Source of the DNA: Flavobacteriales bacterium
GTDB taxonomy: Bacteria; Bacteroidota; Bacteroidia; Flavobacteriales_D; JAUILH01
Assembly (NCBI GenBank): GCA_964230215.1
Contig: CAXRGQ010000007.1
Coordinates: 789,531 to 853,530, forward strand
DNA length: 64,000 bases
Direction of reading: 5' to 3'
In this document: positions 2,773-27,700 of the stretch, piece after piece
Position numbering within the stretch: position 1 is the stretch's first letter
Layout of the letters: each line of letters opens with the position of its first letter
Notes under the pieces: generated by a model
What the model was told of the DNA's origin: nothing
Seen by the model: the letters and a program-made list of their open reading frames with translations, nothing else
Databases searched by the model: none
Made by a program: the position numbers and the translations under genes

Positions 2773-4146
2773 ATGCAATTGTTTAATCATAGATTCTTTT
2801 GGCATTGCCTTCTGATAATTGGAGTCGTGTTTTGCGTATCTGGCAATCATCTTTTTGATCAAACCATGTTTATGGATGGCCTTACGTATACGGACGTAAG
2901 TATTAACATGATGTCTGGCGAAGGAAGTATTTGGAGCCCCAAATATACAGAGGTCTGGAACCCCTTCTATGAACATCCTCCTTTGGCATATGCAACGCAG
3001 GCCACTGTTTTATCAATTACTGGCGCGCCGTTATGGGGAGACGCTTTATATGGAATAGTTTGTTTTATACTGGTGTTTATAGCTATAGTTAAGTCATTTA
3101 GATTCATAGCTAAATCTAACGGAAAGTCGGATGTTCTTCCCTTACTATTGTTCTTAAGCTGCCCAATTGTTTGGTGGAGTATAGGCAACAATATTTTAGA
3201 GAACACTTTGATGGTATTTACAACGTGGGCTAGCTATTATCTAATATCAAATATTCATCAGAAGACAGTATGGAGACCACTATTGGCAGGAATGCTTGTA
3301 GCGGCAGCATTTTTATCAAAAGGGTTTACAGGCTTATTTCCAATTTCATTGCCTTTTCTTTTAATGTTCTTAAGTAGACCATATGATTTTCGCTACTTCC
3401 TTCGTGAGACATTTACGGTAATAGTGGGGCTTGGCGTTATAATGGGCGCCATACTGATAGATAATAACGCACTAGCTTTTTTCGAAAACTACATGAATCA
3501 GCAGGTTATACGTAGCCTGAGCGGCATTCAAACGGTAAACTCACGATTCGACATCTTATTAAAATTCCTACTTGAGATATTACCTATGCTTGTTGTCTTC
3601 CTAAGCATATCCATCTATAAAAACATAAAAAACAAAACGATTTCAAACAGCTCATGGTTTTGGGTTTTAACCATATATAGTTTATGTCCTGTGCTACCAA
3701 TTTGCGTGAGCCTTAAGCAAGGAGCGTTCTATATTTTAGCCGCGTATCCTATAGTTGCTTTGGCGATGGCGCTATGGCTGTATCAGAATATAGAACTTAA
3801 GCTTCATGCTAAATGGCATAGGCCAATTATAGCTTTGGTTTTTCTGGGGGGTTTAGGCAATGTTGCCTTCCATTTCAACAAATTAGGGGCGCATGCTGAT
3901 ATGATAAATGAAGTTGATGACATGGCAAAAACGATTGAGGGTACGGTAGCTTGTGATCATGAAACATATGTTGATTGGTCTTTTCAAACCTATTTATACC
4001 GCAGACACGGAATATCATTGGACAATAAAAATCCGTATGACCATGATTTCCTTATACTAGTTGCAGCCAGCAAAAACAGCGTGATACCTAATTACAGCTT
4101 ATACAAGGATTATGGGAAACATGTGATATTTAAACGGCATGATTAA
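2773..4146 (+). CDS. Polytopic membrane glycosyltransferase (ArnT/PMT-like, GT39/GT83-type)
   Basis: 457 aa with many hydrophobic helices. Early loop YEHPPLAY resembles ArnT-like transferases. Assigned by pattern only. Confidence 0.45.
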   Translation: MQLFNHRFFWHCLLIIGVVFCVSGNHLFDQTMFMDGLTYTDVSINMMSGEGSIWSPKYTEVWNPFYEHPPLAYATQATVLSITGAPLWGDALYGIVCFILVFIAIVKSFRFIAKSNGKSDVLPLLLFLSCPIVWWSIGNNILENTLMVFTTWASYYLISNIHQKTVWRPLLAGMLVAAAFLSKGFTGLFPISLPFLLMFLSRPYDFRYFLRETFTVIVGLGVIMGAILIDNNALAFFENYMNQQVIRSLSGIQTVNSRFDILLKFLLEILPMLVVFLSISIYKNIKNKTISNSSWFWVLTIYSLCPVLPICVSLKQGAFYILAAYPIVALAMALWLYQNIELKLHAKWHRPIIALVFLGGLGNVAFHFNKLGAHADMINEVDDMAKTIEGTVACDHETYVDWSFQTYLYRRHGISLDNKNPYDHDFLILVAASKNSVIPNYSLYKDYGKHVIFKRHD

Positions 4147-4919
4147 TCTTCAATCGAAAATTTATCTGCGTCTTTGTGAACAGGAAACTTCTCTCTAAAA
4201 TCCTTAAGAATAGAATATGATAGGCTAGATGTAATGACCGCTTCATTGTGATTTTCATCCCTCATAATATATTCGCCATACGGATCAATTATTGCACTGT
4301 CCCCAACAAACGTGAAGTCGTTCTTATCATTTCCAACCCTATTACATGCTATCACATAAGCTTGGTTTTCAATAGCTCGCGCAAGGAGCAAGGATTTCCA
4401 AGCGTTTCTCCTGGGTTCGGGCCAGTTGGCAACATATATTATAATATCCGCTTTTCCGTTTAGCTTTGACCATACTGGGAAACGCAAATCATAACATACA
4501 TAGGGACTAATTTTCCATCCTTTATAGTCTATAATGAGCTGTTTGTTGCCAGGCGTATAGGAGATATGCTCTCCAGCCATAGAAAAGAGGTGCCTTTTAT
4601 CGTATGATTCGTATGTTCCATCTGGATGAACAAACAAAAATCGATTATAATAGCGTCCAGTATCCTTAATTGCAAGCGAACCACAGACTGCCGCATTGTA
4701 TTTTTTAGCTTGATTTTGCATCCAGTTTAAACTAAATGAATTTTCCATGTCTTCTGCAATGGGCGATGGTTTCATAGTGAATCCAGTACTAAACATCTCG
4801 GGCAAGACATATAAGTCGGTATTGTCATGATTAAAAAAGGCCTCATATCGTTTGCAATTTCCCTCGATATTTTCCCAGTCAATATCTACTTGAAGTGTTT
4901 TAACGTTTAAATCTTGCAT
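4143..4919 (-). CDS. Carbon-nitrogen hydrolase, omega-amidase (YafV-like)
   Basis: 258 aa. Nitrilase-superfamily Glu/Lys/Cys contexts LPEMF, YDKRHLF and CYDLRFP. Confidence 0.8.
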   Translation of the reverse strand: MQDLNVKTLQVDIDWENIEGNCKRYEAFFNHDNTDLYVLPEMFSTGFTMKPSPIAEDMENSFSLNWMQNQAKKYNAAVCGSLAIKDTGRYYNRFLFVHPDGTYESYDKRHLFSMAGEHISYTPGNKQLIIDYKGWKISPYVCYDLRFPVWSKLNGKADIIIYVANWPEPRRNAWKSLLLARAIENQAYVIACNRVGNDKNDFTFVGDSAIIDPYGEYIMRDENHNEAVITSSLSYSILKDFREKFPVHKDADKFSIED

Positions 4920-6043
4920 AATATATCAGCTGCTTTAATAAGTGTATCATTATTTTTAGCAAAACACAATCTAAGGATCTTGTGGTCTTCTGCTGTACTG
5001 TAAAAGACAGAACACGGAATACTGGCGACCCCATACTCTATGGTCATTCTTTTGGCGAAATCAACATCATTTTCTTGACTGATTGCGCTATAATTCACTA
5101 GTTGAAAGTAGGTGCCATTTGATGGTAATAATTCAAATCTACTCCCACTCAAGGCAGTTTGTAAAAGATCTCTTTTCTTTTGAAAGAATGCAGGAAGTTC
5201 TTGATATGATTGATTCGGCACATATTCTGCAAGCGCCATTTGAATTGGAGTATTGCAACTAAACACAATGTACTGATGAAACTTTCTGAACTCCTTAGTT
5301 AATGAATGCGGAGCAACGCAGTAGCCCATTTTCCATCCTGTGGTATGATAGGTTTTCCCGAATGAGTAGCAGATAAAACTTCTTTCAAACAAGGCAGGAT
5401 AGTCTAGGACAGAGATGTGATGCTTACCACCAAACACAATGTGTTCATACACTTCATCCGAAATAAGATAAAGATTATGTTTGAGCACAAGTTCTTCAAT
5501 AGCCTGTAATTCCTCGTTTGAGATAATCGCTCCTGAGGGATTATGGGGAGAATTGATAATAATTGCTTTTGTCTTATTTGTGATTTTGGCGGCTAGATCC
5601 TCCAAAGGAATACTAAAATCAGGATAATTAAGTGAAATGTGTATTGTTTTACCGCCATATGCAGCAATCGCAGGCTCATAACAATCGTAGGCCGGGTCAA
5701 AAACAATCACCTCATCTCCTTTCTCAACAAGGCAACTAATGGCTGAAAATATTGCCTGGGTAGCTCCGGCGGTGATAGTAATGTTGTCCGCATTGATGGA
5801 GGTTGTATGCCTAGCAGTGTATTTTATTGCCAAGGCCTCTCTTAAGCTCAGATTACCAGGCATAGGAGCATATTGATTAAATCCCTTTTGCATGAAGGAA
5901 TTTACTGATTCAATTAATCCTTCATCACAATTGAACTCGGGAAAACCCTGAGACAGATTTATGGCATTGTGTTTATTTGCAAGTGCAGACATCACTGAAA
6001 AGATAGTATCGCCTACTTGCGGTAGTTTACTTTTAAAACTCAT
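4907..6043 (-). CDS. Class I PLP-dependent aminotransferase (YbdL-like methionine/glutamine transaminase)
   Basis: 378 aa. Motifs NSPHNPSG and the PLP-lysine context SFGKTYHTTGWKMGY. Overlaps the amidase start by 13 nt. Confidence 0.8.
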   Translation of the reverse strand: MSFKSKLPQVGDTIFSVMSALANKHNAINLSQGFPEFNCDEGLIESVNSFMQKGFNQYAPMPGNLSLREALAIKYTARHTTSINADNITITAGATQAIFSAISCLVEKGDEVIVFDPAYDCYEPAIAAYGGKTIHISLNYPDFSIPLEDLAAKITNKTKAIIINSPHNPSGAIISNEELQAIEELVLKHNLYLISDEVYEHIVFGGKHHISVLDYPALFERSFICYSFGKTYHTTGWKMGYCVAPHSLTKEFRKFHQYIVFSCNTPIQMALAEYVPNQSYQELPAFFQKKRDLLQTALSGSRFELLPSNGTYFQLVNYSAISQENDVDFAKRMTIEYGVASIPCSVFYSTAEDHKILRLCFAKNNDTLIKAADILCKI

Positions 6044-6187: not shown

Positions 6188-6421
6188 ATGAAAAAAGTAT
6201 TATTATCATTAGTAGTTGTTGCTGCAGTAGGAATGACTTCTTGCGGTGGAGGTGACGTATGTTCATGTTTGAAAGATGCAGAAAAGATGGCTGAAGAAGC
6301 TGGAGATGATGCTGACAAGCAAAAAGAAGCACAGGAAAAATCTCTAGAATGTTTAGATATGGTAAAAGACATGTCTGAAGAAGAGATTGAAGCTGAAATG
6401 AAAGATTGCGATCTTGAGTAA
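6188..6421 (+). CDS. Small acidic CxC lipoprotein, paralog 1
   Basis: 77 aa. Signal peptide with lipobox GMTSC, then CSC, then two further Cys (ECLD, DCDL). Glu/Asp/Lys-rich. Has its own terminator downstream. Confidence 0.8.
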   Translation: MKKVLLSLVVVAAVGMTSCGGGDVCSCLKDAEKMAEEAGDDADKQKEAQEKSLECLDMVKDMSEEEIEAEMKDCDLE

Positions 6422-6461
6422 AAAAATCGAATCTAGTGATTCGGTTCACTAGACATAATTT

Positions 6462-6488
6462 AACCCACCTTTAGGTGGGTTTTTTTGT
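6462..6488 (+). terminator. Rho-independent terminator after paralog 1
   Basis: aacccacc-ttta-ggtgggtt hairpin followed by a T-run. Confidence 0.8.
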
Positions 6489-6583
6489 TTTTGAAGGGTG
6501 TATTTGTGCTTATTGATCTGATAAGGAGAAGTATTAAAATCAAAAAAATGCCTGAAAACTTGACTTGTATTGAAAAAGCATGT

Positions 6584-6590
6584 TAATTTG
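6584..6590 (+). promoter_or_regulatory. Bacteroidota-type -7-like element (TAATTTG) upstream of paralog 2
   Basis: Resembles the TAnnTTTG consensus (one position short). TTG motifs lie about 22 nt upstream. It sits about 42 nt before the ATG. Confidence 0.4.
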
Positions 6591-6631
6591 CGCCCTATTA
6601 AAAAAAACTTAAAAACTTAAATTATTTAGTT

Positions 6632-6859
6632 ATGAAAAAGGTATTATTAGCAGTAGCTGTTGTAGCTGCATTTGGAATGACATCTTGTGGTGGTCCTGAC
6701 GTATGTGACTGTATGAACTTAGAGTACGACGAAGAAGGAAAAGCAAAAGATGCTGATCTTGAGAAGAAATGTGAAGAAATGGGTAAAGACAAGTCTGAAG
6801 AGGAGTTGGAAGAGATGATGGAAGAGGCTAAAAAGTGTGATAAGAAAGACGAAGAATAG
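6632..6859 (+). CDS. Small acidic CxC lipoprotein, paralog 2
   Basis: 75 aa. Lipobox GMTSC, then CDC, KKCEEM and KKCDKK. The leader and signal-peptide DNA are very similar to paralogs 1 and 3. Confidence 0.85.
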   Translation: MKKVLLAVAVVAAFGMTSCGGPDVCDCMNLEYDEEGKAKDADLEKKCEEMGKDKSEEELEEMMEEAKKCDKKDEE

Positions 6860-6883
6860 ACCCATATTCTTTAAAAAAACAAA

Positions 6884-6912
6884 AGCCCAACCATTCGGTT
6901 GGGCTTTTTTTG
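6884..6912 (+). terminator. Rho-independent terminator after paralog 2
   Basis: agcccaacc-attc-ggttgggct hairpin followed by a T-run. Confidence 0.85.
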
Positions 6913-7035
6913 TGTGCTAATGTATTCTCGGTTAGGACGGTATAGAAATTTCTAATAATCAAGCAAAGACATGGGCTTAAATGAGGTTTTTTGTATGTAT
7001 TAGTTTGTTTTTTTGGACTTTAACAAATTTAGTCC

Positions 7036-7043
7036 TACATTTG
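7036..7043 (+). promoter_or_regulatory. -7 promoter element TACATTTG (TAnnTTTG) upstream of paralog 3
   Basis: Exact match to the Bacteroidota sigma-A -7 consensus pattern, 31 nt upstream of the ATG at 7075. Confidence 0.55.
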
Positions 7044-7074
7044 CGCAGATTTTAAACGTTTAAATTATTTAGTT

Positions 7075-7308
7075 ATGAAAAAAGTATTTTTATCAATGGC
7101 AGTAATAGCTGCTTTCGGTATGGTTTCTTGTGGTGGTCCAAGCGTATGTGACTGCGTTAACGAAGAAGAGGAATCAGAAGAGTGTAAAGAAATGAAGAAA
7201 GACTGGGAAAAGGAGTACAAAGATGCTTCTGACGAGGAGAAAGAAGAAATGATGAAAGAGGTAAAAGATTGCCAGAAAGAAGGAGAAGATAAAGAAGGAG
7301 AAGAATAA
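7075..7308 (+). CDS. Small acidic CxC lipoprotein, paralog 3
   Basis: 77 aa. Lipobox GMVSC, then CDC, EECKEM and KDCQKE. Confidence 0.85.
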   Translation: MKKVFLSMAVIAAFGMVSCGGPSVCDCVNEEEESEECKEMKKDWEKEYKDASDEEKEEMMKEVKDCQKEGEDKEGEE

Positions 7309-7330
7309 GTCACTCTTATTTGAAATTGAA

Positions 7331-7361
7331 AACCCCAAGCACTTGTGCTTGGGGTTTTTTT
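7331..7361 (+). terminator. Rho-independent terminator after paralog 3
   Basis: aaccccaagcac / gtgcttggggtt hairpin followed by T7. Confidence 0.85.
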
Positions 7362-7414
7362 ATGCGTATGTTTTTGGTGTTTTGGAGAAAATAGATTCTT
7401 GAATGCAATTTTTA

Positions 7415-7422
7415 TATCTTGC
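7415..7422 (+). promoter_or_regulatory. TATCTTGC box (probable -7-type promoter element) upstream of paralog 4
   Basis: The exact 8-mer TATCTTGC recurs 18-28 nt upstream of paralogs 4, 5, 10 and 11. Confidence 0.45.
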
Positions 7423-7443
7423 GGGGTAACTAAAATTTATATA

Positions 7444-7698
7444 ATGAAAAAACTAATAGTATCTATGGCAGTTCTAGCTGCTTTTGTTGCTACATCTTGT
7501 GGTGATGATAAAGAATCTGACGAGAAATCAAGTGGACCAAATGTATGTGACTGCGTAAATATGGAGTACGACGAAGATGGCAATCCAAAAGATATGGACC
7601 TAATGGAGAAGTGTGAAGAAATGGCGGAAGAAGTAAAAGGAGATGATGAGAAGATGAAAGAGCTGATGGAAGAGGCTAAAAAGTGTGAGAAAGAATAA
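7444..7698 (+). CDS. Small acidic CxC lipoprotein, paralog 4
   Basis: The ORF-track ORF starts at 7345. The internal ATG at 7444 gives MKKLIVSMAVLAAFVATSC, a proper lipoprotein signal. Followed by CDC, EKCEEM and KKCEKE. The mature part is closest to paralog 2. Confidence 0.8.
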   Translation: MKKLIVSMAVLAAFVATSCGDDKESDEKSSGPNVCDCVNMEYDEDGNPKDMDLMEKCEEMAEEVKGDDEKMKELMEEAKKCEKE

Positions 7699-7720
7699 GC
7701 ACTCAATATAACAAACAAAA

Positions 7721-7752
7721 AAGCCCGTTTGACTATGTCAAACGGGCTTTTT
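7721..7752. terminator. Bidirectional rho-independent terminator (paralog 4 and csp)
   Basis: gcccgtttgac-tat-gtcaaacgggc hairpin flanked by an A-run on the left and a T-run on the right. It lies between convergent genes. Confidence 0.85.
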
Positions 7753-7771
7753 GTAAATATCTCGTAAAAGA

Positions 7772-7963
7772 CTAAACCAATTTCACGTTTACCGCGTTCA
7801 GTCCTTTTGCCCCTTGTTCAAGGTCAAAAGTTACTTTGTCGCCTTCTTTAATATCAACTGTTAGTGCACTTTGGTGTACAAAGGCATCTTTACCACCATC
7901 ATCTGGAGTTATAAATCCAAATCCTTTAGTAGTGTTGAAAAATTTTACTGTACCGTTACTCAT
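7772..7963 (-). CDS. csp: Cold-shock protein (CspA family)
   Basis: 63 aa. RNP1 KGFGFI and RNP2 DAFVH motifs. Confidence 0.95.
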
Positions 7964-8220
7964 TATATATTGTATTAATTAAGTCGCGAAGGTAGACCTT
8001 TAAATCGTCCCGAACTATTTTTTTATTGATATTCAGCTATTTACATTAAGAGTGAAATCAAAGATACGAGTGATAACAGGGGATGCAGGGCATAAAATAG
8101 TTTAAAATAAATAGGCTTACCTTGGCTAATCGTGCTGTGATTTGATGAATTTCAGTTGTTTTTCCTACTTCATCGGCTTAAAATGAACGCGCAAGAGGAC
8201 AGCCATACCTCTAAGTTTCA

Positions 8221-8228
8221 TATCTTGC
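8221..8228 (+). promoter_or_regulatory. TATCTTGC box upstream of paralog 5
   Basis: Exact 8-mer, 21 nt before the ATG at 8250. Confidence 0.45.
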
Positions 8229-8249
8229 ACTAAACAAAAACTACTTATA

Positions 8250-8570
8250 ATGAAGAAACTACTATTATCACTTACACTTGGAGCTGGCTTAGTATTGGCT
8301 TCATGCGGTGGAGACACTGATGCAGCAGATATTAAAGCAGAAGACTTAGAAACAGCTTGTGACTGCGTAGACGCAATGAATACAATAGTAGATCGCATGA
8401 TTGAACTACTGGATGAGGATGAAAGCGAAGAAGTTGACGCTGAATATGAAAAGCTGGAGGAGAAAATGAATGAAGTTACTAAGCACTGCACTAAAGAATT
8501 TAAGAAAGAAGATGCCGAAGGATGTGATGGATATGACGATATTTCTGAGAAAATGAGACAAATAAGATAA
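8250..8570 (+). CDS. Small acidic CxC lipoprotein, paralog 5 (longer variant)
   Basis: 106 aa. Lipobox LASC, then ACDC, KHCTKE and EGCDGY. Confidence 0.75.
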   Translation: MKKLLLSLTLGAGLVLASCGGDTDAADIKAEDLETACDCVDAMNTIVDRMIELLDEDESEEVDAEYEKLEEKMNEVTKHCTKEFKKEDAEGCDGYDDISEKMRQIR

Positions 8571-8590
8571 TTCACTAATAGAAAGGATCT

Positions 8591-8630
8591 AGCCCAGCAA
8601 CCATAAATTTATTGGTGCTGGGCTTTTTTA
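8591..8630 (+). terminator. Rho-independent terminator after paralog 5
   Basis: agcccagca...tgctgggct hairpin followed by T6. Confidence 0.75.
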
Positions 8631-8657
8631 ATTCCAATTTTTAAGGAACTTTAGCAT

Positions 8658-8891
8658 ATGAAAAGACTAGTTTATGTATTTGTCATACTATTCACAACTT
8701 GCTTGATCGCATGCGAAGACGAGGATTCAGACAATAAAGAACCCAGCGTTTGTGAGTGTGTTGAAAATGCAAATGAGGACGAAAAGTTAGCCGAAGAATG
8801 CGAAAAAATGTATGAGAATGCGTCTAATGAGCGACAGGAGGAAATAAAAAAAGAAGCCGAAGAGTGCATAAAAGAAATGTCTATTGAATAA
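8658..8891 (+). CDS. Small acidic CxC lipoprotein, paralog 6
   Basis: 77 aa. Lipobox LIAC, then CEC, EECEKM and EECIKE. The stop overlaps the next ATG (TAATG). Confidence 0.75.
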   Translation: MKRLVYVFVILFTTCLIACEDEDSDNKEPSVCECVENANEDEKLAEECEKMYENASNERQEEIKKEAEECIKEMSIE

Positions 8892-9256
8892 TGCTTAATC
8901 AGATGAAAAGATGGATATGGGTGGTCATTGCTACCATCAGCTTGGCAAGTTGTGGGAATGATAACGAGTCAAACGCAAAAAGCTTAGCTGATTGTACATG
9001 CGAGTGTGTTCAGGATAACGGCCTTAAATCTCTAATGGGTAATTCTTCACCAATTTCAGGAGTTGGGGCCATTCAAGATTGTCTACAAAAAAGCGCAAAG
9101 GACGAACTGGAGTATTATTTGGGTCTTCAAGAAAGTGAAAAAAAGGAATTTATTAAGACCTTTCTAAAAGCATTGGTTGATTCACAATGTACAGATTTAG
9201 CACTCCTAATGTCTATGCCATATATCGATAAATTAGTAGGAGAGGCATCTGAATAA
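8891..9256 (+). CDS. CxC lipoprotein, paralog 7 (divergent, longer)
   Basis: 121 aa. Lipobox LASC, then CTCEC, QDCLQK and SQCTDL. An alternative ATG at 8903 gives MKRWIWVV.... Confidence 0.65.
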   Translation: MLNQMKRWIWVVIATISLASCGNDNESNAKSLADCTCECVQDNGLKSLMGNSSPISGVGAIQDCLQKSAKDELEYYLGLQESEKKEFIKTFLKALVDSQCTDLALLMSMPYIDKLVGEASE

Positions 9257-9298
9257 ACCAGAATGATTTCGTATGTTTAGTGTGAAAAACAAGAAATC

Positions 9299-9955
9299 AT
9301 GAAAAATGTATTATTGGGTATTTTGTGCCTTTCGTTTGCACTAACTTCTTCTGCTCAAGTTGGGGAAAAAGGAAAAATTTATGTCGATTTAAATGGCGGT
9401 CTCGGTATTTATAGAACGCTTGCCACCTCAACGATTACAAGTGGAGGCTCAAGTATTTCGTCTGAGGTAAAAGACACAGCTGCAGCGACCTATGTAGCCA
9501 TTGGAGCAGAATATGGCATTGTTGATTGGCTTAGTGCAGGTTTAAACCTAAGGTCAGGGAGCTATCTTTACGAGGACAATGATCAAAAACAATACAAAAG
9601 CAACAAGGTTAACACGCTTGAGGCTACTTCACACCTCTATTTTTTAAACCGAGATAAGTTCACGTTTTTCGGATCAATTGCGCTTGGATATACATTCTTC
9701 AAGAACAGCTATGACAATAACATTTATTCATCAGATGAAAAATATAATGGCTTGCATACCGGATTAGGACTAGGTTTTAAGTGGTTGTTTATTAAAGAAA
9801 GAGTTGGTTTGTTTTTTAACTATGAGTACAACACCTTCAACTTTGATTTAAAGGAGCGGATGATCAACGGAAATCAGCAGGATTTATCAAACCTAGAATA
9901 CAATTTAAATGTTCGTGGAAGTGAATTACGTTTGGGCCTCAGTGTTAAGATTTAG
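9299..9955 (+). CDS. Outer-membrane beta-barrel protein (OmpW/porin-like, function unknown)
   Basis: 218 aa. Signal peptide ending SSAQ. Alternating hydrophobic and Gly/Tyr/Asn-rich strands. Embedded in the lipoprotein array. Confidence 0.55.
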   Translation: MKNVLLGILCLSFALTSSAQVGEKGKIYVDLNGGLGIYRTLATSTITSGGSSISSEVKDTAAATYVAIGAEYGIVDWLSAGLNLRSGSYLYEDNDQKQYKSNKVNTLEATSHLYFLNRDKFTFFGSIALGYTFFKNSYDNNIYSSDEKYNGLHTGLGLGFKWLFIKERVGLFFNYEYNTFNFDLKERMINGNQQDLSNLEYNLNVRGSELRLGLSVKI

Positions 9956-10187
9956 TGCAATTATTTGGATGATTCTTTTTCTTGGATCTTGTAGTAGTGG
10001 CGGAGATGACAATAAGGCCTTGTGCGAATGCATTAAAGACCTGGATGCTTTGGATGCACAGATGCGCGAGGAAGGCAGTTCAAGAGAGCTGGCAAACGCA
10101 TTTAAAAAACGAATGGCAAATTGCGCAAAGGTCATGAAGGACTATAAACCAGAGAAAAAGGAAGAAATTTTGAAGAACTGTGAGTGA
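9942..10187 (+). CDS. Small CxC lipoprotein, paralog 8
   Basis: The ORF-track ORF starts at 9909. A GTG at 9942 gives (M)LRFSAIIWMILFLGSC, a normal-length lipoprotein signal, whereas the ATG at 9969 would leave too short a signal. Followed by CEC, ANCAKV and KNCE. Overlaps the end of the OMP gene. Confidence 0.6.
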   Translation: MLRFSAIIWMILFLGSCSSGGDDNKALCECIKDLDALDAQMREEGSSRELANAFKKRMANCAKVMKDYKPEKKEEILKNCE

Positions 10188-10194
10188 TAATGAT

Positions 10195-10202
10195 TATCTT
10201 GC
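10195..10202 (+). promoter_or_regulatory. TATCTTGC box upstream of paralog 9
   Basis: Exact 8-mer, 28 nt before the ATG at 10231. Confidence 0.45.
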
Positions 10203-10230
10203 CCTCCAATAAACGTTATTAAAGATTAAA

Positions 10231-10461
10231 ATGAAAAAAGTATTGTTTTCTGCTGCATTAGTTGCAGCACTAGGATTGTCTTCATGTGGTGGAGATAAAG
10301 ATTATTGCGAGTGTATGGAAATCGGCCTTAAAGTTCTTGGTGGTGAAATGACCAAAGAAGAAGCTGAAGATGAAGCTAAAGGATGTGAGTACATTAAAGA
10401 CTTATCACAAGAAGAGCAAGCTGAAAAAGCTAAAGATTGCGACTTCAGTGATATGAAGTAA
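10231..10461 (+). CDS. Small acidic CxC lipoprotein, paralog 9
   Basis: 76 aa. Lipobox LSSC, then CEC, KGCEYI and KDCDFS. Confidence 0.8.
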   Translation: MKKVLFSAALVAALGLSSCGGDKDYCECMEIGLKVLGGEMTKEEAEDEAKGCEYIKDLSQEEQAEKAKDCDFSDMK

Positions 10462-10488
10462 CTATCATACTTAACTAATTTAAGTTTT

Positions 10489-10530
10489 AACCTGTCTTCA
10501 GCAATAAGCGGAAGTCAGGTTTTTTCTTTT
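10489..10530 (+). terminator. Rho-independent terminator after paralog 9
   Basis: aacctgtcttc...ggaagtcaggtt imperfect hairpin followed by a T-run. Confidence 0.6.
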
Positions 10531-10557
10531 TATACCCCAAGAGACTAAGGTTTTAGT

Positions 10558-10565
10558 TATCTTGC
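10558..10565 (+). promoter_or_regulatory. TATCTTGC box upstream of paralog 10
   Basis: Exact 8-mer, 18 nt before the ATG at 10584. Confidence 0.45.
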
Positions 10566-10583
10566 ATTACAAAATTATAGACT

Positions 10584-10874
10584 ATGAAATCTCTAGCTTT
10601 ATCTATTATATGTGTAAGTAGTGTAATGGTAATTACCTCTTGTGGCTCATCGTATTCTTCAGAAGCAGGTGATATGGCTGATGGCGTGTGCGACTGTGTG
10701 GGAGAAAATTATAGTGAAGATTTCGCAAAGGAATGCTTGTTTAAAGTAGTTACCTCATCAAAAAAGTATGAAGAGTTTGGAGACGATATTGACGCTGCAC
10801 AGGCGTTTTCAATGGAGGTTCAGGACGCTCTCAAGGATAAATGCCCAGAAGTATATACAGTTCTTAAAGATTAA
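10584..10874 (+). CDS. CxC lipoprotein, paralog 10
   Basis: 96 aa. Lipobox ITSC, then CDC, KECLFK and DKCPEV. Confidence 0.7.
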   Translation: MKSLALSIICVSSVMVITSCGSSYSSEAGDMADGVCDCVGENYSEDFAKECLFKVVTSSKKYEEFGDDIDAAQAFSMEVQDALKDKCPEVYTVLKD

Positions 10875-10895
10875 ACGGCCCCAATAAACTTAGGT

Positions 10896-11246
10896 ATGAC
10901 TAGAGTATATTTCGCTTTCCTACTTATTTTTACTCTTGCTGTTGCATCATGTGGAAGCAAACAATCTGACACCATTTCAATTAAGGATATTAAAGAGCCA
11001 TGTGACTGCACCAATCATCTTACTATTTATTTGGATGAGGCACTAGAAATCTCACAAAATTACGATTCTGGCAAGGATATAGAAGGCTCGGCTGATGAAG
11101 CAGAACTAGAGCTTTTATTGGATCGTATTGAGGCAACTCAGCGCAAATGTGAAAAAAAATTCGAATCTTCTGCAGTCCAATCGTGTAGTGGAAGCGAGCA
11201 AGTTGAGTCTAAGCTAATTGAGCTTTATAAATTATTGTCCGAATAG
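10896..11246 (+). CDS. CxC lipoprotein, paralog 11
   Basis: 116 aa. Lipobox VASC, then PCDC, RKCEKK and QSCSGS. It starts 21 nt after paralog 10, so the two are probably co-transcribed. Confidence 0.7.
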   Translation: MTRVYFAFLLIFTLAVASCGSKQSDTISIKDIKEPCDCTNHLTIYLDEALEISQNYDSGKDIEGSADEAELELLLDRIEATQRKCEKKFESSAVQSCSGSEQVESKLIELYKLLSE

Positions 11247-11262: not shown

Positions 11263-11712
11263 TTACTGGACTATTCTCATGCCAACATGAGGTATACCGT
11301 CCTCTAGATATTCATCTGTATACTTTTCAAACCCAAACCCTTCGTAATAGTGCATTAAATGAGACTGTGCACTGATAGCAATTTTTAGCGGCTCATAATG
11401 TTTGTCTATGTGTGTCAGGGTGAACCGAATTAACCGTGATGCAAGTCCTTTAGATCTATAATTTACATCTGTCACCACGCGCCCAATTTTAATGATGTTA
11501 TCCTGAACATAAAGACGCAAATAACAACATGCCACCATTCCGTCCATGATAAAAATATGCTCAGCGCTTTTATCTATCTCGTCTACATCAGGATAAGGAC
11601 AGTCCTGCTCCACGACAAATACATCAACACGCAACTTGTAAATAGCGAATATTTCATCGTTACTTAAATCTTGGAATTTCTTTATATGGATGTTATCTAA
11701 AGGCAAAACCAA
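11263..11712 (-). CDS. GNAT family N-acetyltransferase (ElaA-like)
   Basis: 149 aa. VFVVEQDCPYPDVDEID and RSKGLASRL motifs as in ElaA-type GNATs. The start is a TTG and is uncertain. Confidence 0.7.
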   Translation of the reverse strand: MVLPLDNIHIKKFQDLSNDEIFAIYKLRVDVFVVEQDCPYPDVDEIDKSAEHIFIMDGMVACCYLRLYVQDNIIKIGRVVTDVNYRSKGLASRLIRFTLTHIDKHYEPLKIAISAQSHLMHYYEGFGFEKYTDEYLEDGIPHVGMRIVQ

Positions 11713-12988
11713 TGTTGAATAATAAGTTGTTATTTAGACTAAGCCCTTGGTAGTAACCTTTCGACTTATAACCTAGCCTGGCTTGTACAAATGCGTTTCG
11801 GCGTTTAAATAGTTTGTAGTTAGCAATTATATTTCCCATTCCGCCAAAACCTTCGAATTGCTCAAACACTTGATTTACCTTAAAGCTCATTTCGGGCTGA
11901 TTCCACAGGCCAATTAGCCCATCAAGGCTAAATCGTTTATCCTTTCCCAATAGTAAATTAAACATATTAATATCTATGCCCAAGGACTTAATTGCGCTTC
12001 CAGCCGTATGTCGAAAATCAAATTCGAGCATTGATTTTTCAAACTTAAAGTACTGCTTATAAAGCATTTCGATTCCATAAGGAGCGGTAAGGATATCAAA
12101 ACTTGGCAAATACTTAACTTTTTCTCCAAACTTAATCCACAGTAGTTTGGCTTCTTCCTCACCTTTGGCTATATACTTAAATAACCCAGCCGCAGACGCC
12201 AGATTTACTGGGTCGAGAATCATATCTGCTATGGATAAGATCTGAAGCTTATCTAAATCTACATGCCCTTGACCATAAGTGGCATTAAGCTCGTTGGCAT
12301 AACGCGTCAAACTCGAATCAACATACGATTTACCAGTGGCTATATGAAAGGCTAAATCATTATTAGAAAACAGATACAATAGGCCATCTTCAAATAACAT
12401 ATGATCGTTTAACAATGTGTTTTTGGCTGCCAGGTTTGATATCATCTGATTGGCTTCAAAGCCCCCTATGTAACTCAGCGCTCGCTCCTTTGGACTCAGA
12501 GAGTCTGAGAAAATTACTGACATTGTTGGCAAACCTTGGCCATACGGCTGTGGCACGCTTAGATTAGGAGCCGTGTAACTTGCTCCTAATTGTTCTGCCC
12601 TATACTGAGCACCAAATATTTGTCTCTGAGTAATAGCAGTAAGATAAGTTAGTGGATAATCCATCAACCCCGTTTTTACCACCCTGTACAAAATGTTTCC
12701 GGCTTTGGATAGTTTACTCTCTTTTTTGAAAATATCTGTAGGAATAAACTTATTCTCCAGTCGACTAACTAACTCATGATTTGCGAGCAACTGTTGAGCA
12801 CCAAAGTTGGCCGAGAGTTCGTTTTCGTATACAAGGCTGTATATTGAGTTTTTATCGTCCTTATCGGATTTTTTGTCCTTGTCTTTGTCTTTTTTGTCCT
12901 TATTGAAGAATTGTGCACTTGTATCACAAACACTTAGTGATGCAATAAGAAGGCAGATTAGTTTGAACTGAAAGAGTCTTTGCAACAT
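11693..12988 (-). CDS. Hypothetical secreted protein with K/D-rich low-complexity N-terminus
   Basis: 431 aa. Signal peptide, then KDKKDKDKDKKSDKDDK. No motif recognised. Confidence 0.4.
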   Translation of the reverse strand: MLQRLFQFKLICLLIASLSVCDTSAQFFNKDKKDKDKDKKSDKDDKNSIYSLVYENELSANFGAQQLLANHELVSRLENKFIPTDIFKKESKLSKAGNILYRVVKTGLMDYPLTYLTAITQRQIFGAQYRAEQLGASYTAPNLSVPQPYGQGLPTMSVIFSDSLSPKERALSYIGGFEANQMISNLAAKNTLLNDHMLFEDGLLYLFSNNDLAFHIATGKSYVDSSLTRYANELNATYGQGHVDLDKLQILSIADMILDPVNLASAAGLFKYIAKGEEEAKLLWIKFGEKVKYLPSFDILTAPYGIEMLYKQYFKFEKSMLEFDFRHTAGSAIKSLGIDINMFNLLLGKDKRFSLDGLIGLWNQPEMSFKVNQVFEQFEGFGGMGNIIANYKLFKRRNAFVQARLGYKSKGYYQGLSLNNNLLFNIGFAFR

Positions 12989-24773: not shown

Positions 24774-27700
24774 TTATCTCACTACAGTTACATGACCAAT
24801 GTACTCATGTGGTATGTTTTTATGGTCAACCGTTTTAATTAACCAAACATATACATCTAACTTAACTGTTCTTCCACTGCGTGTATCCGTTCCATCCCAT
24901 CCATAATCTGGACTGTGAGATTCGAATACAATTTGTCCCCATCTATCAAAGATGTACATTTCAAACTGATTATCAGTAAGACCGACACCAACAGGGTAGA
25001 ACACATCATTCATACCATCACCATTAGGTGTAAATGCGCTTGGTGCGAATAGAATGTAATCTCCTTCAACATACACTTCATATGAGATTTGATCTGTACA
25101 ACCAAACTCATTTTCAACCGTAAGCGTTACATCAAAGTATCCAGTGTCAGTATACGTATGAATAGGGTTTTGATACGTTCCAATCGTGTGTCCATCATTT
25201 GTTCCTACTGGCACTGCTCCTGGAGTTCCGCTAAGCGTATATCCATCACCAAAGTCCCAGTTGTACACAGTAGCACCCGAGCTTGAATCCGAGAATGTAA
25301 TTGTTGGATTCAACATAGTGGTAATCGCCGGATCCATTCCAAAATTAGCTATTGGAAGTGGATGAGATGTTACTATCTGACTTGCTGTCATAGAAGCAGT
25401 ACATCCATCTGCAGACTCCACTGTCATACAAACATCATATGTTCCAGGTGTGCCGTACGTATAAGTTGGATTTGAATTAGGTCCAACATAATCAACGGTT
25501 CCATCACATTCAAAGTCGAATGAGTAGTTAACACCGATATCCGAGTTAGCAATGAACTGAGCTGTGAATGGTGAACATCCAGACGAATCAACTACATTCA
25601 AGAATGCAGATGGATTAGGATTCACAATTACTTCAACTGAGTCTAACACATCTAAGCTACAACCATCTCCCGTGGTTACATAGTACCATCCAGAAGCTAG
25701 TGGGTTAAGTGTTATAGTAGATGAGTTGCCATTCTGTGTACCTGCAATTGGATTACCTTGATCGTCTACCCAATCAAATGTGTAAGGTCCACCATTACCA
25801 TCTGAAGCCGTAACCGTTAAATCAATCTGATCTCCGTCACAAATAGATGTATCTGGTGTTATAACAGTTGCAATTGGAGGTAGAACTGTGATATCGATAC
25901 AACCTAAGCCAGTACTTGGACAACCATTTGCATCTGTAATATCAAAGCAATATTGAGTACTTGTTAATGGATTAACCGTAATTGGTCCCTGACCATTCAA
26001 GCCTGGTGTTTGCCAGATGATGTTGTAAGGAGGTGTACCACCTTGTCCGCTTGCCCATAACTGAGACGAATCACCATAACAAATGGTCGCGTCTAAATCT
26101 GGAACAGGACTTAGTGGCTGTGGCTCAATAAGAGTTGCACAATTTGTAGCCTGACACCCGTTTGCATCTTGAATAGTAACACAATATGTGCCATCTCCAA
26201 GCGCCACTGCTGGGTTCGAATTTTGGTTAAACGCTGCTGCATCCCACTGATAGGTAATTGTACCAGTACCACCACTGTGAAGTACTTCAAGTGATCCGTT
26301 TGATAAACCATTACATGTTGGAGGTGTTAAGTTAAATCCATCAATAGTAGGAGCAGGCTCATCGGTTACAGTAATTGTAATCGTTTCTGTACATCCTTGC
26401 GCATCTGTCACTTCAACAGTGTGTAAACCTGCAAGTAGTCCAGTGTTAGTTTGTGAAGTCAAGTTACTTCCTCCAGATAGCCACTGGTACGTATACGGTG
26501 CTGTACCACCAGTTGGGTTCACCGTTGCGGTTCCATTAGCCTGAGAACATGTCGAGTTAGTAGAGCTTCCAGTTAGTGTTAATAGAGGTGGCTCTGTAAT
26601 CGTCACACTAATGTTTGCTGGACATCCGTTTCCATCTGTTACGTCTAAATCATACGTTCCTGCACACAATGCACTTGCCGTTGGGCCGTTAGACACAACA
26701 GGAGTCCATGCATAAGTATAAGGAGGTGTAGCACCACTTGCCGTAATCGTTACTGTACCATCGCATGCACCGTTACAACTAACATCTACCTGGTTAGTAT
26801 TTGCTAATAATAGTTGCGTTGGTTCAGTGATCGTTACAGTACTTGAAGTACTACAATTGTTCGAGTCAGACACTATTACGTTATAAGTACCCGCACATAG
26901 CCCTGTATTGGTTGCTGCTGTAGTGTTTGCACCGGCATTCCAGTTGTATGTATAACCTGTCAATACAGATGGCAGTCCACCACTCACAGATACAGTTGCT
27001 TGGCCATCGCATCCCAAATAACAACTAACATTTGTTTGTGATGTAATTGCACTGTTTATCTGATTTGGTTCTGTAATACAAATGGTGCTAAAGTCAATAC
27101 ATCCCGCAGCATCTGTAGCCATAAGAGTATAGCATCCACCATCAAGACTAGTAGTTAGGGTTTGCCCTGTGTTAACAGAGTTGTTGTTCGCATCAAGGAG
27201 CTCTAATGTTGATGTACCAGTTCCCCCTGTAACAGAGAATTCAACCATACCATCCATGTCACCAAAACATGTCACATTCATTGAGTCAACATTATCTACC
27301 GTTGGACCAACAATATCGCTAATACATAGTAAGCTATCTTTAATACATCCGTTTGCATCTACAATTGTTATCGTATAACATCCTGCAGGAATGTTTGGTA
27401 ATGTCGCAGATGTTGTTCCGTTAGGATCACTCCATTGATATGTAAATGGTGCCACACCACCTATAACATTGACGCTCATAGATCCATTCGATTGACCGCA
27501 GTTAGAATTAGTAAGCGTAGCTGCAAAGTCAAGTTCGTTTGGTTGTGTTATAATTACGGTCTCAGTAATAATACATCCATTAGCATCTGTAATTGTACAT
27601 GTATATGTTCCTGCACATAAGTTGATTGCACTTGCCCCAGTTTGGAATGCAGGGTCGTCCCATTGATAATTAAATGGAGGCGTACCACCTTGTAACAACA

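What the first reader, a model, noticed from the sequence alone, without database searches (positions are those of the whole stretch)
6188..11246. Tandem array of eleven paralogous small acidic lipoproteins with an invariant lipobox-Cys + CxC + C + C signature
Eleven same-strand ORFs of 75-121 aa make up the array: 6188-6421, 6632-6859, 7075-7308, 7444-7698, 8250-8570, 8658-8891, 8891-9256, 9942-10187, 10231-10461, 10584-10874 and 10896-11246. Each begins with a lipoprotein signal peptide ending in a lipobox Cys (GMTSC, LASC, LIAC, GSC and similar). An invariant C-x-C follows 5-17 residues later (CSC, CDC, CEC, CTCEC). Two further conserved Cys then follow, each roughly 15-45 residues on (about 20-25 in the short copies). 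The mature parts are extremely Glu/Asp/Lys-rich and look helical. I do not recognise the family. The array is interrupted only by a csp gene on the other strand and by a beta-barrel OMP gene. Conservation of exactly four post-lipobox Cys across otherwise divergent copies suggests one of two things: a two-disulfide-stapled helical hairpin, or a tetrathiolate metal site displayed on a lipid anchor. The tandem, diversified, multi-promoter organisation also resembles arrays of orphan immunity or decoy lipoproteins. All functional ideas here are inference.
Basis: partly seen in the sequence, partly recalled or inferred. Interest (0 to 1): 0.8.

Follow-up and report, generated by a model that had tools for sequence, protein, structure and literature searches.

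The report
Array of uncharacterised four-cysteine acidic lipoproteins
Eleven neighbouring genes encode small, very acidic, membrane-anchored helical proteins from a Bacteroidota family that is real, conserved and found in other uncultured relatives, but has never been named or studied, so its function is still only inferred.

Summary
Eleven same-strand ORFs at 6188-11246 each carry a lipoprotein signal peptide, a CxC motif and two further Cys. A csp gene and an OMP beta-barrel gene are embedded in the array.

They are real genes. Orthologues in a syntenic relative give dN/dS of 0.08-0.12. A profile built from independent proteins hits all eleven ORFs and nothing else in the window.

They belong to an uncurated Bacteroidota family. 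It has no Pfam, NCBIfam, PHROG, PADLOC or PDB match. An exhaustive search of 1.84 billion representatives found 262 clusters. Of 116 mature domains, 111 have exactly four Cys. All source names seen were "hypothetical protein", apart from two evident automatic mis-annotations.

AlphaFold2 predicts a three-helix bundle, not a hairpin, with pLDDT about 88 in the domain.

Tandem arrays are typical of the family (2-11 copies in nine of eleven loci). This array sits at an old, conserved chromosomal site. Most genes have their own promoter-like box and terminator.

Nothing supports an immunity or decoy island.

Function is inferred only. My best guess is disulfide-stabilised polyanionic envelope lipoproteins that bind cations or cationic ligands. 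Soft-metal binding by Cys/Met is the main rival.

Copies 7 and 10 share only the N-terminal module with the family. This is a new protein family of a familiar kind and is moderately interesting.

The parts
6188..6421 (+). Copy 1: 77-aa lipoprotein. Cys at 19 (lipobox), 25, 27, 55, 74.
   Evidence: Family HMM E 4.6e-19; mature-domain HMM E 1e-9. AF2 predicts three helices, 24-38, 42-60 and 64-72. dN/dS 0.12 against the L010 orthologue.
6632..6859 (+). Copy 2: 75-aa lipoprotein, a shortened form (CxC-x19-C-x21-C).
   Evidence: E 2.4e-18; E 1.3e-8. The identical protein is found on 16 public contigs.
7075..7308 (+). Copy 3: 77-aa lipoprotein. C3 lies soon after CxC, as in the family's 'early C3' variant (CxC, +10, +29 here; +12 to +14, +28/+29 in the family).
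   Evidence: E 9.7e-15; E 9e-5. It shares a ~129-nt 5' block (UTR plus signal peptide) with copies 1 and 2 at a 443-444-nt period.
7444..7698 (+). Copy 4: 84-aa lipoprotein with an LES-like CGDDKESDE after the lipobox.
   Evidence: (E 1.6e-5).
7772..7963 (-). Embedded cold-shock protein gene. It is not a family member.
   Evidence: Pfam CSD E 5e-22. It is absent from the syntenic array in L010.
8250..8570 (+). Copy 5: 106-aa 'long' type, CxC-x40-C-x11-C followed by an extra helix.
   Evidence: E 7e-6. BLASTP to copy 11 gives E 4e-11 with all Cys aligned.
8658..8891 (+). Copy 6: 77-aa lipoprotein with an LES-like CEDEDSD.
   Evidence: (E 1.1e-5).
8903..9256 (+). Copy 7: 117-aa divergent lipoprotein (alternative start 8891). 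It shares only the signal peptide plus CxC module with the family.
   Evidence: It is 95% identical to the L010 orthologue with dN/dS 0.10. The L097 orthologue is 25% identical, E 9e-15, with Cys aligned.
9299..9955 (+). Embedded 218-aa outer-membrane beta-barrel gene. Its stop overlaps the start of copy 8.
   Evidence: Pfam OMP_b-brl, 33.9 bits against a 28.7 cut-off. It is absent from L010.
9942..10187 (+). Copy 8: lipoprotein with possible starts at 9921 or 9942. It is the least acidic copy (pI 5.5).
   Evidence: E 3.4e-10; E 3e-6. dN/dS 0.11.
10231..10461 (+). Copy 9: 76-aa lipoprotein.
   Evidence: E 9e-13; E 0.011.
10584..10874 (+). Copy 10: 96-aa divergent lipoprotein. It shares only the signal peptide plus VCxCV with the family.
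   Evidence: It is 83% identical to the L010 orthologue over the 88 aligned residues, with dN/dS 0.08.
10896..11246 (+). Copy 11: 116-aa 'long' type, CxC-x46-C-x11-C.
   Evidence: hhalign to the family gives probability 93%, E 3e-7, aligned through C3. BLASTP to copy 5. dN/dS 0.09.
7415..7422 (+). TATCTTGC promoter-like (-7) box upstream of copy 4. Identical boxes lie at 8221-8228, 10195-10202 and 10558-10565 upstream of copies 5, 9 and 10.
   Evidence: These are the only four occurrences in the 64-kb window. All are on the + strand, 19-29 nt before a family ATG. Related TAATTTGC (6584-6591) and TACATTTGC (7036-7044) lie upstream of copies 2 and 3.
6462..6490 (+). Intrinsic-terminator-like hairpin plus T-run after copy 1. 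Similar ones lie at 6881-6915 (copy 2), 7333-7361 (copy 3), 7718-7752 (between copy 4 and csp; the scan scored it on the - strand only, and its inverted repeat has runs on both sides), 8591-8629 (copy 5) and 10490-10526 (copy 9).
   Evidence: The scan found 8 sites against 2.9 expected. The other hairpins were read from the sequence.

Best explanation
What it is (well supported, probability above 0.9). This is a chromosomal tandem array of eleven anciently duplicated genes for one uncurated Bacteroidota family of small lipid-anchored proteins. The mature domain is about 55-65 aa. It is a three-helix bundle that begins with C-x-C in the first turn of helix 1, has a third Cys near the end of helix 2 and a fourth in or after helix 3. 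The surface is dense with Glu, Asp and Lys, and the core is unusually rich in Met.

Transcription (inferred from sequence motifs). Copies 1-5 look monocistronic, each with its own box and terminator, and copy 9 has its own box and a terminator after it. Two short operon-like blocks make up the rest: copy 6, copy 7, OMP and copy 8; and copies 10-11.

How it probably works (inferred, about 0.35). The proteins are exported, lipidated and anchored in the outer membrane. Most should face the periplasm, because only copies 4 and 6 carry an acidic LES-like surface-export motif. At least C2-C3 form a structural disulfide that locks the small bundle. The domain acts non-enzymatically through bulk properties. 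It would form a dense fixed polyanionic layer that binds or buffers cations (divalent metals or cationic peptides/proteins) at the envelope. Many separately transcribed, subfunctionalised paralogues would supply dosage and condition-specific variants.
For: Gene reality and family:
- establish the ORFs and their family membership.
- Exact copies occur on 16 public contigs.
- Orthologue dN/dS is 0.08-0.12, similar to the flanking housekeeping genes at 0.04-0.15.
- The exhaustive search gave 262 clusters at E<=1e-3.
- 111 of 116 mature domains have exactly four Cys.

Fold:
- AF2 on copy 1 gives helices 24-38, 42-60 and 64-72.
- AF2 on canonical P0192 gives helices 33-49, 54-75 and 80-93 with pLDDT 85-91.
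- In the heptad analysis, C2, C3 and C4 sit at core positions, and C2 and C3 are in exact antiparallel register.

Bulk-property argument:
- Apart from the Cys, the conserved columns are mostly hydrophobic core positions, one loop Asp (84%) and an S/T-x-E-E stretch at the start of helix 3, alongside recurrent Lys/Glu positions. No catalytic-looking motif is present.
- Composition of the family domain is E 18.9, D 9.2, K 16.7 and M 6.4%. The other long ORFs of the window have E 5.0, D 6.3, K 5.1 and M 2.0%.
- Window copies have pI 4.05-4.44 and net charge -8 to -19, except copy 8 (pI 5.5, net -1).

Localisation:
- The lipobox is present in all copies.
- An LES-like motif (>=2 D/E at +2 to +5) occurs only in copies 4 and 6, and in 28 of 186 family members. 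The LES definition is from PMC6222051.

Organisation:
- Arrays are the rule elsewhere: L097 has 9 copies, L010 has 8, L102 has 6, L101 has 5, L098 has 4, L007 and L015 have 3, and L099 has 2.
- The same site next to the CN_hydrolase/aminotransferase pair is used in L010 and in L097, where the aminotransferase is only 51% identical.
Against: - There is no expression, lipidation, localisation or binding data of any kind.
- The LES rule comes from Bacteroides and Capnocytophaga and may not transfer to this lineage.
- A purely bulk-charge function does not explain why four Cys are so strictly kept. It also does not explain why C4 sits, by helix register, at the opposite end of the bundle from C1-C3 in canonical members.
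- It does not explain the threefold Met enrichment, or the Met-rich tails ending in His in some relatives.
- No conserved partner gene was found that would point to a ligand.
- Copies 7 and 10 may have a different C-terminal fold.
Confidence: 0.4

Rival explanations
1. Soft-metal handling. In this reading, the lipid-anchored bundles bind or buffer Cu(I), Ag(I), Zn or Cd. Ligands would be the Cys cluster (C1, C2, C3, with or without C4) and/or Met side chains, making the proteins an envelope metal sink or chaperone.
For: - The CxC plus two Cys are invariant, and three of them converge at one end of the predicted bundle.
- In the copy 5/11 type, all four Cys can cluster.
- Met is 6.4% in the family against 2.0% in the other long ORFs of the window.
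- A subfamily carries a Met-rich extra helix. His is 0.3% overall, yet 7 of 116 proteins end in His (e.g. ...MGGEH...GGH).
- The four Cys are also kept in a Bacteroidales MAG protein. From memory, and untested here, such anaerobes often lack Dsb machinery.
- An HMA-domain gene lies about 5 kb from the family genes in L015 and SCO1/SenC genes lie about 5 kb away in L100.
Against: - No family member matches any Pfam or NCBIfam copper/metal family.
- There is no cop/cus/czc operon context in any of 11 loci. The HMA and SCO1 genes are several genes away and occur in single loci.
- The Met positions are hydrophobic core positions that other members fill with Leu, Ile or Ala.
- Window copies lack the Met/His tail, and copy 11 has no Met in its mature part.
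- Extracytoplasmic Cys in aerobes are usually disulfide-bonded.
Confidence: 0.22
2. Redox or covalent-assembly module. In this reading, the exposed CxC at the N-cap of helix 1 is redox-active, in the manner of Mia40's CPC or CsgC's CxC. Alternatively, C1 and the distal C4 form intermolecular disulfides that link copies into homo- or hetero-oligomers on the membrane.
For: - By helix register, C4 is about 7-9 helical residues (about 11-13 Å along the axis) from the CxC level in canonical members. An intramolecular C1-C4 bond is therefore not obvious, while C2-C3 are in register.
- C4 sits at different, non-homologous positions in the subtypes (offsets of +11, +19, +22 and +30 from C3), as if only its presence matters.
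- Tandem multi-domain versions exist.
- A CxC motif with a proposed redox role is described for periplasmic CsgC (PMC3173608, listed).
Against: - Cys-Cys distances could not be measured, because no coordinates were available. The geometry is inferred from secondary-structure limits only.
- There is no thioredoxin-like or CHCH similarity.
- No hydrophobic substrate groove is evident in such a charged protein.
- No Dsb or VKOR neighbours were seen.
Confidence: 0.1
3. Orphan immunity or decoy array. In this reading, each diverged copy neutralises a different exported toxin or cationic antimicrobial.
For: - The genes are tandem, diverged paralogues with separate promoters.
- Copy number differs between relatives (11, 8 and 9), with turnover in the first half of the array.
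- The acidic surface could bind basic toxins.
Against: - There are no toxin, T6SS, Rhs, CDI or mobile-element genes in the 64-kb window or in the flanks of 11 loci.
- There are no PADLOC or PHROG hits beyond the signal peptide, and none on viral contigs.
- Orthologues show dN/dS 0.08-0.12, not diversifying selection.
- The locus is fixed beside housekeeping genes in lineages whose aminotransferase is only 51% identical.
- Array GC (0.34-0.38) lies at the low end of the window's 0.34-0.46 range and shows no distinct island signature.
Confidence: 0.06
4. Sacrificial antioxidant layer. In this reading, abundant Met- and Cys-rich envelope proteins scavenge HOCl or H2O2 and are recycled by methionine sulfoxide reductases. 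The analogue is the methionine-rich periplasmic scavenger peptide recalled from memory and discussed in reviews of chlorine stress (PMC7464077, listed; not read).
For: - Met is enriched about threefold.
- An msrA (PMSR) gene lies about 1.2 kb downstream of a three-gene array in L015.
Against: - The msrA adjacency occurs in 1 of 11 loci and has a GDPD gene in between.
- Most Met residues sit at buried core positions.
- Several window copies have 0-3% Met.
Confidence: 0.06

Closest known systems
PG1828 family lipoprotein of Porphyromonas gingivalis (NCBIfam NF050142)
   Same: It is a small Bacteroidota outer-membrane triacylated lipoprotein (PMC13466725). It is the only named model giving repeated weak matches: up to 30.4 bits over profile positions 1-44 for family member P0088, and at most 21 bits for the window copies.
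   Different: All scores are below the 50-bit cut-off. For the window copies the match covers little beyond the signal peptide. No evidence was obtained that PG1828 has the CxC/C/C pattern.
Braun lipoprotein Lpp (Enterobacteria)
   Same: It is a very small, all-helical lipoprotein anchored in the outer membrane and acting structurally rather than enzymatically. Also, 53 of 116 family members end in Lys, as Lpp does (from memory).
   Different: There is no sequence similarity. Lpp is a Cys-free trimeric coiled coil, not a four-Cys three-helix bundle. The window copies mostly do not end in Lys. Peptidoglycan attachment was not tested.
CHCH / twin-CX9C proteins (Mia40, Cox17, Coa6)
   Same: They are small, disulfide-stapled helical domains. 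Mia40 has a redox-active C-P-C just before the helices. Coa6 appeared at rank 20 in the Foldseek list.
   Different: That Foldseek hit has E=9.6, so it is not significant. The twin CX9C spacing is absent (CxC, about x35, about x22). The fold here is three helices, not a hairpin. These proteins are also eukaryotic and mitochondrial.
Periplasmic Met/His-rich Cu/Ag binders (SilE/PcoE, CusF, CopC) and the CxCC protein CopG
   Same: They are small extracytoplasmic proteins enriched in Met. Some relatives here have Met-rich tails ending in His, and a Cys cluster includes CxC.
   Different: There are no profile matches. His is almost absent (0.3%). Met lies mainly in the core. There is no cop/sil/cus gene context.
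Surface-exposed Bacteroidota lipoproteins carrying the LES export signal
   Same: They are acidic lipoproteins of the same phylum. Copies 4 (CGDDK) and 6 (CEDED) have the acidic residues at +2 to +5 that define the LES (PMC6222051).
   Different: Nine of the eleven copies, and 85% of the family, start with CGG or similar and have fewer than two acidic residues at +2 to +5. Most are therefore predicted to stay on the periplasmic side.

Membership tests
Bacterial lipoproteins (signal peptidase II substrates) | A basic n-region, a hydrophobic h-region, and a lipobox [LVIM][ASTVI][GAS]C within about 15-25 residues of the start. | tested here: met
   All eleven copies fit. For copy 8 this holds only with a start at 9921 or 9942. 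The 'SCGG' lipobox is near-invariant in the family.
Bacterial lipoproteins (signal peptidase II substrates) | Actual diacylglyceryl modification and Lsp cleavage. | not testable with these tools
   This needs globomycin or acyl-labelling experiments.
The uncurated four-Cys family defined here | A significant match of the mature domain (without signal peptide) to a profile built from independent members. | tested here: met
   Copies 1-6 and 8 score E 1e-9 to 9e-5. Copy 9 scores 0.011. Copy 11 is joined by hhalign at E 3e-7 through C3 and by BLASTP to copy 5 at E 4e-11.
The uncurated four-Cys family defined here | The same criterion applied to copies 7 and 10. | tested here: inconclusive
   The mature-domain HMM gives no hit for copy 7 and E 0.13 for copy 10. 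hhalign aligns only the signal peptide plus VCxCV. The Cys count and array position are conserved, including in the L097 orthologue of copy 7.
PG1828 family lipoprotein (NF050142) | A score at or above the curated cut-off of 50 bits. | tested here: not met
   The window copies score 12-21 bits. The best family member scores 30.4 bits.
CHCH / twin CX9C | Two CX9C motifs on an antiparallel helical hairpin. | tested here: not met
   The Cys spacings are CxC, 10-47 and 12-36. The predicted fold has three helices. There is no significant structural match.
Known periplasmic copper/metal-binding families (CopC, CusF, PcoE/SilE, CopG, HMA, Sco) | A profile match to the family model. | tested here: not met
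   No such Pfam or NCBIfam hit appears for 20 proteins at E<=0.1-1.
Orphan immunity-gene islands (T6SS/CDI/Rhs-associated) | Linkage to effector, toxin or delivery genes or their remnants, or to mobile elements. | tested here: not met
   None were found in the window or in the flanks of 11 loci. There are no PADLOC or PHROG matches.
Orphan immunity-gene islands (T6SS/CDI/Rhs-associated) | Diversifying selection between orthologues. | tested here: not met
   Pairwise dN/dS is 0.08-0.12 for five orthologue pairs. dS is near saturation (about 1), and site-wise tests were not possible.
LES-bearing surface lipoproteins of Bacteroidota | Two or more acidic residues at positions +2 to +5 after the lipidated Cys. 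| tested here: inconclusive
   The feature is met by copies 4 and 6 only, and by 28 of 186 in the family. The motif definition is from PMC6222051. Whether it transfers to this lineage is unknown.

The most novel reading that the evidence does not exclude
The four invariant Cys may not be a simple pair of structural staples. C2-C3 would lock the bundle, while the exposed C1 of the CxC and the distal C4 would stay reactive. The paralogues would then form a lipid-anchored thiol network on the Bacteroidota envelope. That network could be a Mia40/CsgC-like CxC redox relay, a set of covalently cross-linked hetero-oligomers, or a Cu(I)/soft-metal trap. Tandem arrays would supply interchangeable subunits. 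This would be a previously undescribed envelope redox or metal system specific to the phylum.
Probability: 0.15. Interest if true: 0.8.

Novelty: new variant of a known kind. Interest (0 to 1): 0.45.

Why it matters
Bacteroidota envelopes carry many lipoproteins whose roles are unknown. This family is compact and easy to express, and a confident fold prediction and an unusually clean signature (lipobox, CxC, C, C) mark it out. It is expanded to 2-11 tandem copies in several lineages. It has no name, model or structure in any resource searched here.

Defining it gives annotators a new domain family. It gives experimentalists a tractable target for asking how these bacteria manage cations, metals or thiol chemistry in the envelope. 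The payoff is modest if the proteins are only a charged coat. It is larger if the conserved Cys turn out to be redox- or metal-active.

Tried and rejected
Searches that found nothing:
- Pfam, NCBIfam, PHROG and PADLOC scans of the window copies and of canonical relatives gave only signal-peptide or low-complexity noise.
- A PDB sequence search found nothing.
- Foldseek against PDB with both models gave nothing better than E about 3.
- A viral-contig scan with P0192 found no relatives.
- An Rfam scan of the region gave only sub-threshold matches.
- Six literature searches found no description of the family.

- The genome-contig scan with the copy-7 alignment found no relative.
- The second scan, with the neighbouring aminotransferase, returned 80 Bacteroidota loci at no more than 58% identity. 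None had a family gene beside it. The window's lineage therefore has no close GTDB representative, and the organism could not be named beyond Bacteroidota. Named relatives carrying the family are Crocinitomicaceae and one Bacteroidales MAG.

Ideas considered and dropped:
- A conserved lipoprotein-OMP gene pair. An OMP-like gene is adjacent in 4 of 11 loci, but the OMPs are not detectably homologous.
- Spurious ORFs, rejected on dN/dS and on homologues.
- A recent duplication burst, rejected because paralogues are only 25-57% identical and orthologous subtypes exist in L010 and L097.

Not possible: Cys-Cys distances could not be measured, because the structure tool returns no coordinates.

Full report
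**1. The observation**

ORF listing and a scripted check confirm eleven + strand ORFs at the coordinates given.

- Each starts with a basic n-region, a hydrophobic stretch and a lipobox Cys. A C-x-C follows 6-18 residues later, and two further Cys follow that.
- A six-frame regex search for this pattern found these eleven plus one 43-aa chance ORF.
- Small corrections apply.
  - Copy 7 reads CTCEC here but FTCEC in its orthologue, so the core motif is CxC.
  - Copies 6 and 10 have one extra Cys inside the signal peptide.
  - Copy 8 needs a start at 9921 or 9942, overlapping the OMP stop, to have a credible signal peptide.
  - Strong acidity (pI 4.05-4.25, net -10 to -19) holds for copies 1-6 and 9. 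It is weaker for copies 7, 10 and 11 and absent in copy 8 (pI 5.5).
- The two interrupting genes are a cold-shock protein gene (7772-7963, - strand; CSD E 5e-22) and a 218-aa OMP_b-brl gene (9299-9955).

**2. The genes are real, and the window comes from an uncultured Bacteroidota**

- The exact protein of copy 2 is on 16 public contigs, including the MAG GCA_041260045.1, and gene callers annotate the same small genes there.
- A syntenic locus in a related organism (L010, whose aminotransferase is 88% identical) has eight copies.
- Five orthologue pairs give dN/dS of 0.08-0.12. The flanking housekeeping genes give 0.04-0.15. The genes are therefore protein-coding and under purifying selection.
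- The neighbouring aminotransferase has at most 58% identity to any GTDB species representative. The lineage has no close reference genome.

**3. Which family**

- No Pfam, NCBIfam, PHROG or PADLOC model matches beyond the signal peptide.
- No PDB sequence or fold matches.
- Six literature searches found no description of the family.
- Word-indexed searches of 5.8 billion clusters found 22, 17 and 88 relatives. Where a source gave a name it was 'hypothetical protein', apart from two evident automatic mis-annotations (Cas8b1/Cst1 for P0048, YidC-type insertase for P0251). A few come from Crocinitomicaceae MAGs and one from a Bacteroidales MAG.
- An exhaustive HMMER search of 1.84 billion representatives found 262 clusters at E<=1e-3 and 32 at E<=1e-10.
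- The consensus is: lipobox SCGG, then (P)S-V-C-D-C-V, helix, A-G-D-D, helix with E-K-Y-K...E-E-C-x-K-L, G-E-G-K-S-E-E-E, helix ending A-K-x-C.
- Of 116 mature domains, 111 have exactly four Cys. The commonest offsets between successive Cys are 2, 35 and 22 (that is, CxC-x34-C-x21-C). One variant has C3 soon after CxC (offsets 12-14 then 28-29). Another has C4 only 11 positions after C3.
- Some relatives carry two to five domains in one secreted polypeptide or are anchored by a transmembrane helix. The unit is therefore an autonomous domain.
- A profile built only from these independent proteins hits all eleven window ORFs and nothing else in the window or in 80 unrelated Bacteroidota loci.
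- Without the signal peptide, copies 1-6 and 8 remain significant and copy 9 is marginal. Copy 11 is linked through hhalign (E 3e-7, aligned through C3) and through copy 5 (BLASTP E 4e-11, all Cys aligned). Copies 7 and 10 align only over the signal peptide plus VCxCV. Their later Cys are nevertheless conserved in their own orthologues, including a 25%-identical one in L097.

**4. Structure**

- AlphaFold2 predicts three helices for copy 1: 24-38, 42-60 and 64-72, with core pLDDT of 81-87.
- With an 83-sequence alignment it predicts three helices for canonical P0192: 33-49, 54-75 and 80-93, with pLDDT of 85-91.
- Column statistics show heptad-like hydrophobic positions. C2, C3 and C4 fall on core positions, and C2 and C3 are in exact antiparallel register.
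- By the same register, C4 of canonical members lies near the far end of the bundle from C1-C3. In copy 1 it is only about one turn away. In the copy 5/11 type all four Cys lie at one end.
- This is inference from secondary-structure limits, because the tool returns no coordinates. A C2-C3 disulfide is likely. The partner of C1 and C4 is unresolved.

**5. Composition**

- The family domain has E 18.9, D 9.2, K 16.7, M 6.4, C 6.2, H 0.3 and R 1.2%. The other long ORFs of the window have E 5.0, D 6.3, K 5.1, M 2.0 and C 1.7%.
- Met mostly fills core positions.
- Apart from the Cys, the conserved columns are mostly hydrophobic core positions, one loop Asp and the S/T-x-E-E stretch before helix 3, alongside recurrent Lys/Glu positions. 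Nothing looks catalytic.

**6. Organisation and evolution**

- Copies 1-3 are a 443-444-nt tandem repeat. Its 5' UTR and signal-peptide block is 72-76% identical at the DNA level, while the mature parts have diverged.
- Terminator-like hairpins follow copies 1, 2, 3, 4, 5 and 9. The scan found 8 sites against 2.9 expected.
- The octamer TATCTTGC occurs four times in the whole window. All four are on the + strand, 19-29 nt upstream of the start codons of copies 4, 5, 9 and 10. It resembles the TAnnTTTG -7 element that I recall from memory for Bacteroidetes promoters; I did not check this here.
- TAATTTGC and TACATTTGC occupy a similar place before copies 2 and 3.
- Copy 6, copy 7, OMP and copy 8, and likewise copies 10-11, have gaps of 43 nt or less or overlap, so they look co-transcribed.
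- The array lies beside a CN_hydrolase/aminotransferase pair. The same arrangement occurs in L010 (eight copies, no csp, no OMP). It also occurs in L097 (nine family copies plus one short ORF), whose aminotransferase is only 51% identical. The site is therefore old.
- The distal copies 7, 8, 10 and 11 have one-to-one orthologues in L010. The proximal copies show gain and loss.
- Arrays are typical of the family elsewhere too: 6, 5, 4, 3, 3 and 2 copies, against two singletons.

**7. Function**

- No conserved partner gene emerged. An OMP-like gene is adjacent in four of eleven loci, but these OMPs are not detectably homologous.
- HMA, SCO1 and msrA genes occur near single loci only.
- Only copies 4 and 6 have the acidic residues after the lipidated Cys that define the Bacteroidota surface-export signal (PMC6222051). 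Most copies are therefore predicted to face the periplasm.
- I commit, at about 0.35, to this reading. The proteins are non-enzymatic, disulfide-stabilised, polyanionic outer-membrane lipoproteins that bind or buffer cations or cationic ligands. The array provides dosage and specialised variants.
- The main rival, at about 0.2, is soft-metal binding through the Cys cluster and Met. It is favoured by the strict Cys conservation, the Met enrichment and the Met-rich, His-terminated tails in some relatives. It is weakened by the lack of any metal-family match or metal operon context.
- A redox-active or intermolecular-disulfide role for the CxC and C4 is about 0.1. An antioxidant sink is about 0.06. 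An immunity or decoy array is about 0.06, and is contradicted by context and by purifying selection.

**8. Verdict**

This is a real, conserved, unnamed protein family of a familiar kind (small Cys-containing lipoproteins). This window holds the largest array seen here. I rate the interest as moderate.

Noticed in passing
window 7415-7422, 8221-8228, 10195-10202, 10558-10565 (+): TATCTTGC occurs only four times in the 64-kb window. All four lie inside the array, on the + strand, 19-29 nt upstream of the ATG of copies 4, 5, 9 and 10, which are not each other's closest paralogues. This may be a shared promoter or regulatory element.
   Followed up: partly
window 7719-8249 (-): The embedded csp gene has an unusually long upstream non-coding stretch of about 285 nt. 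A sub-threshold Rfam cspA-thermoregulator match (32 bits against 78, E 1.3e-5) spans the gene and its leader.
   Followed up: no
window 4143-6043 (-); L010 5567-7467; L097 3404-5337: The array is always divergently adjacent to a CN_hydrolase plus class I/II aminotransferase pair. From memory, this pair resembles the omega-amidase/transaminase pair of methionine salvage. That is curious next to Met-rich proteins, but it was not tested.
   Followed up: no
window 9299-9955; L013 5206-5889; L015 4561-5148; L100 5071-5865: A small OMP-like beta-barrel gene sits directly beside family genes in four of eleven loci. In the window its stop overlaps the start of copy 8. The four OMPs show no detectable similarity to each other.
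   Followed up: partly
family proteins P0053, P0056, P0070, P0077, P0021, P0029, P0019 (L015 6001-6288; L101 2839-3162): A subfamily has a Met-rich fourth helix after C4 (C-P-S-Y-K-E-M-E-K-L-M...). It often ends in Gly-Gly-His or His, although His is only 0.3% of family residues. Separately, 53 of 116 members end in Lys.
   Followed up: partly
L098 6717-7631; L102 6458-7375; P0047, P0075, P0141: In some proteins the domain occurs as two to five tandem repeats with an ordinary, non-lipoprotein signal peptide. These genes sit inside arrays of single-domain lipoprotein genes in Crocinitomicaceae MAGs.
   Followed up: partly
window 24774-35651 (-): This is a 3625-aa ORF with 20 SprB repeats, PKD domains and a CHU_C type IX secretion signal. 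It looks like a gliding-adhesin-like giant protein. It lies in a stretch with higher GC (0.43-0.46) than the rest of the window (0.34-0.41).
   Followed up: partly
window 11693-12988 (-): This is a 431-aa ORF with a Lys/Asp-rich repeat (KDKDKDKK) after its signal peptide and no Pfam match. It is conserved at 93% identity in L010.
   Followed up: no
L010 7571-7804: The orthologue of copy 1 in the syntenic relative lacks an in-frame signal peptide in that contig. This could be a frameshift near an A-run, an assembly error or a pseudogene. A full-length 77-aa version (P0018) exists elsewhere.
   Followed up: no
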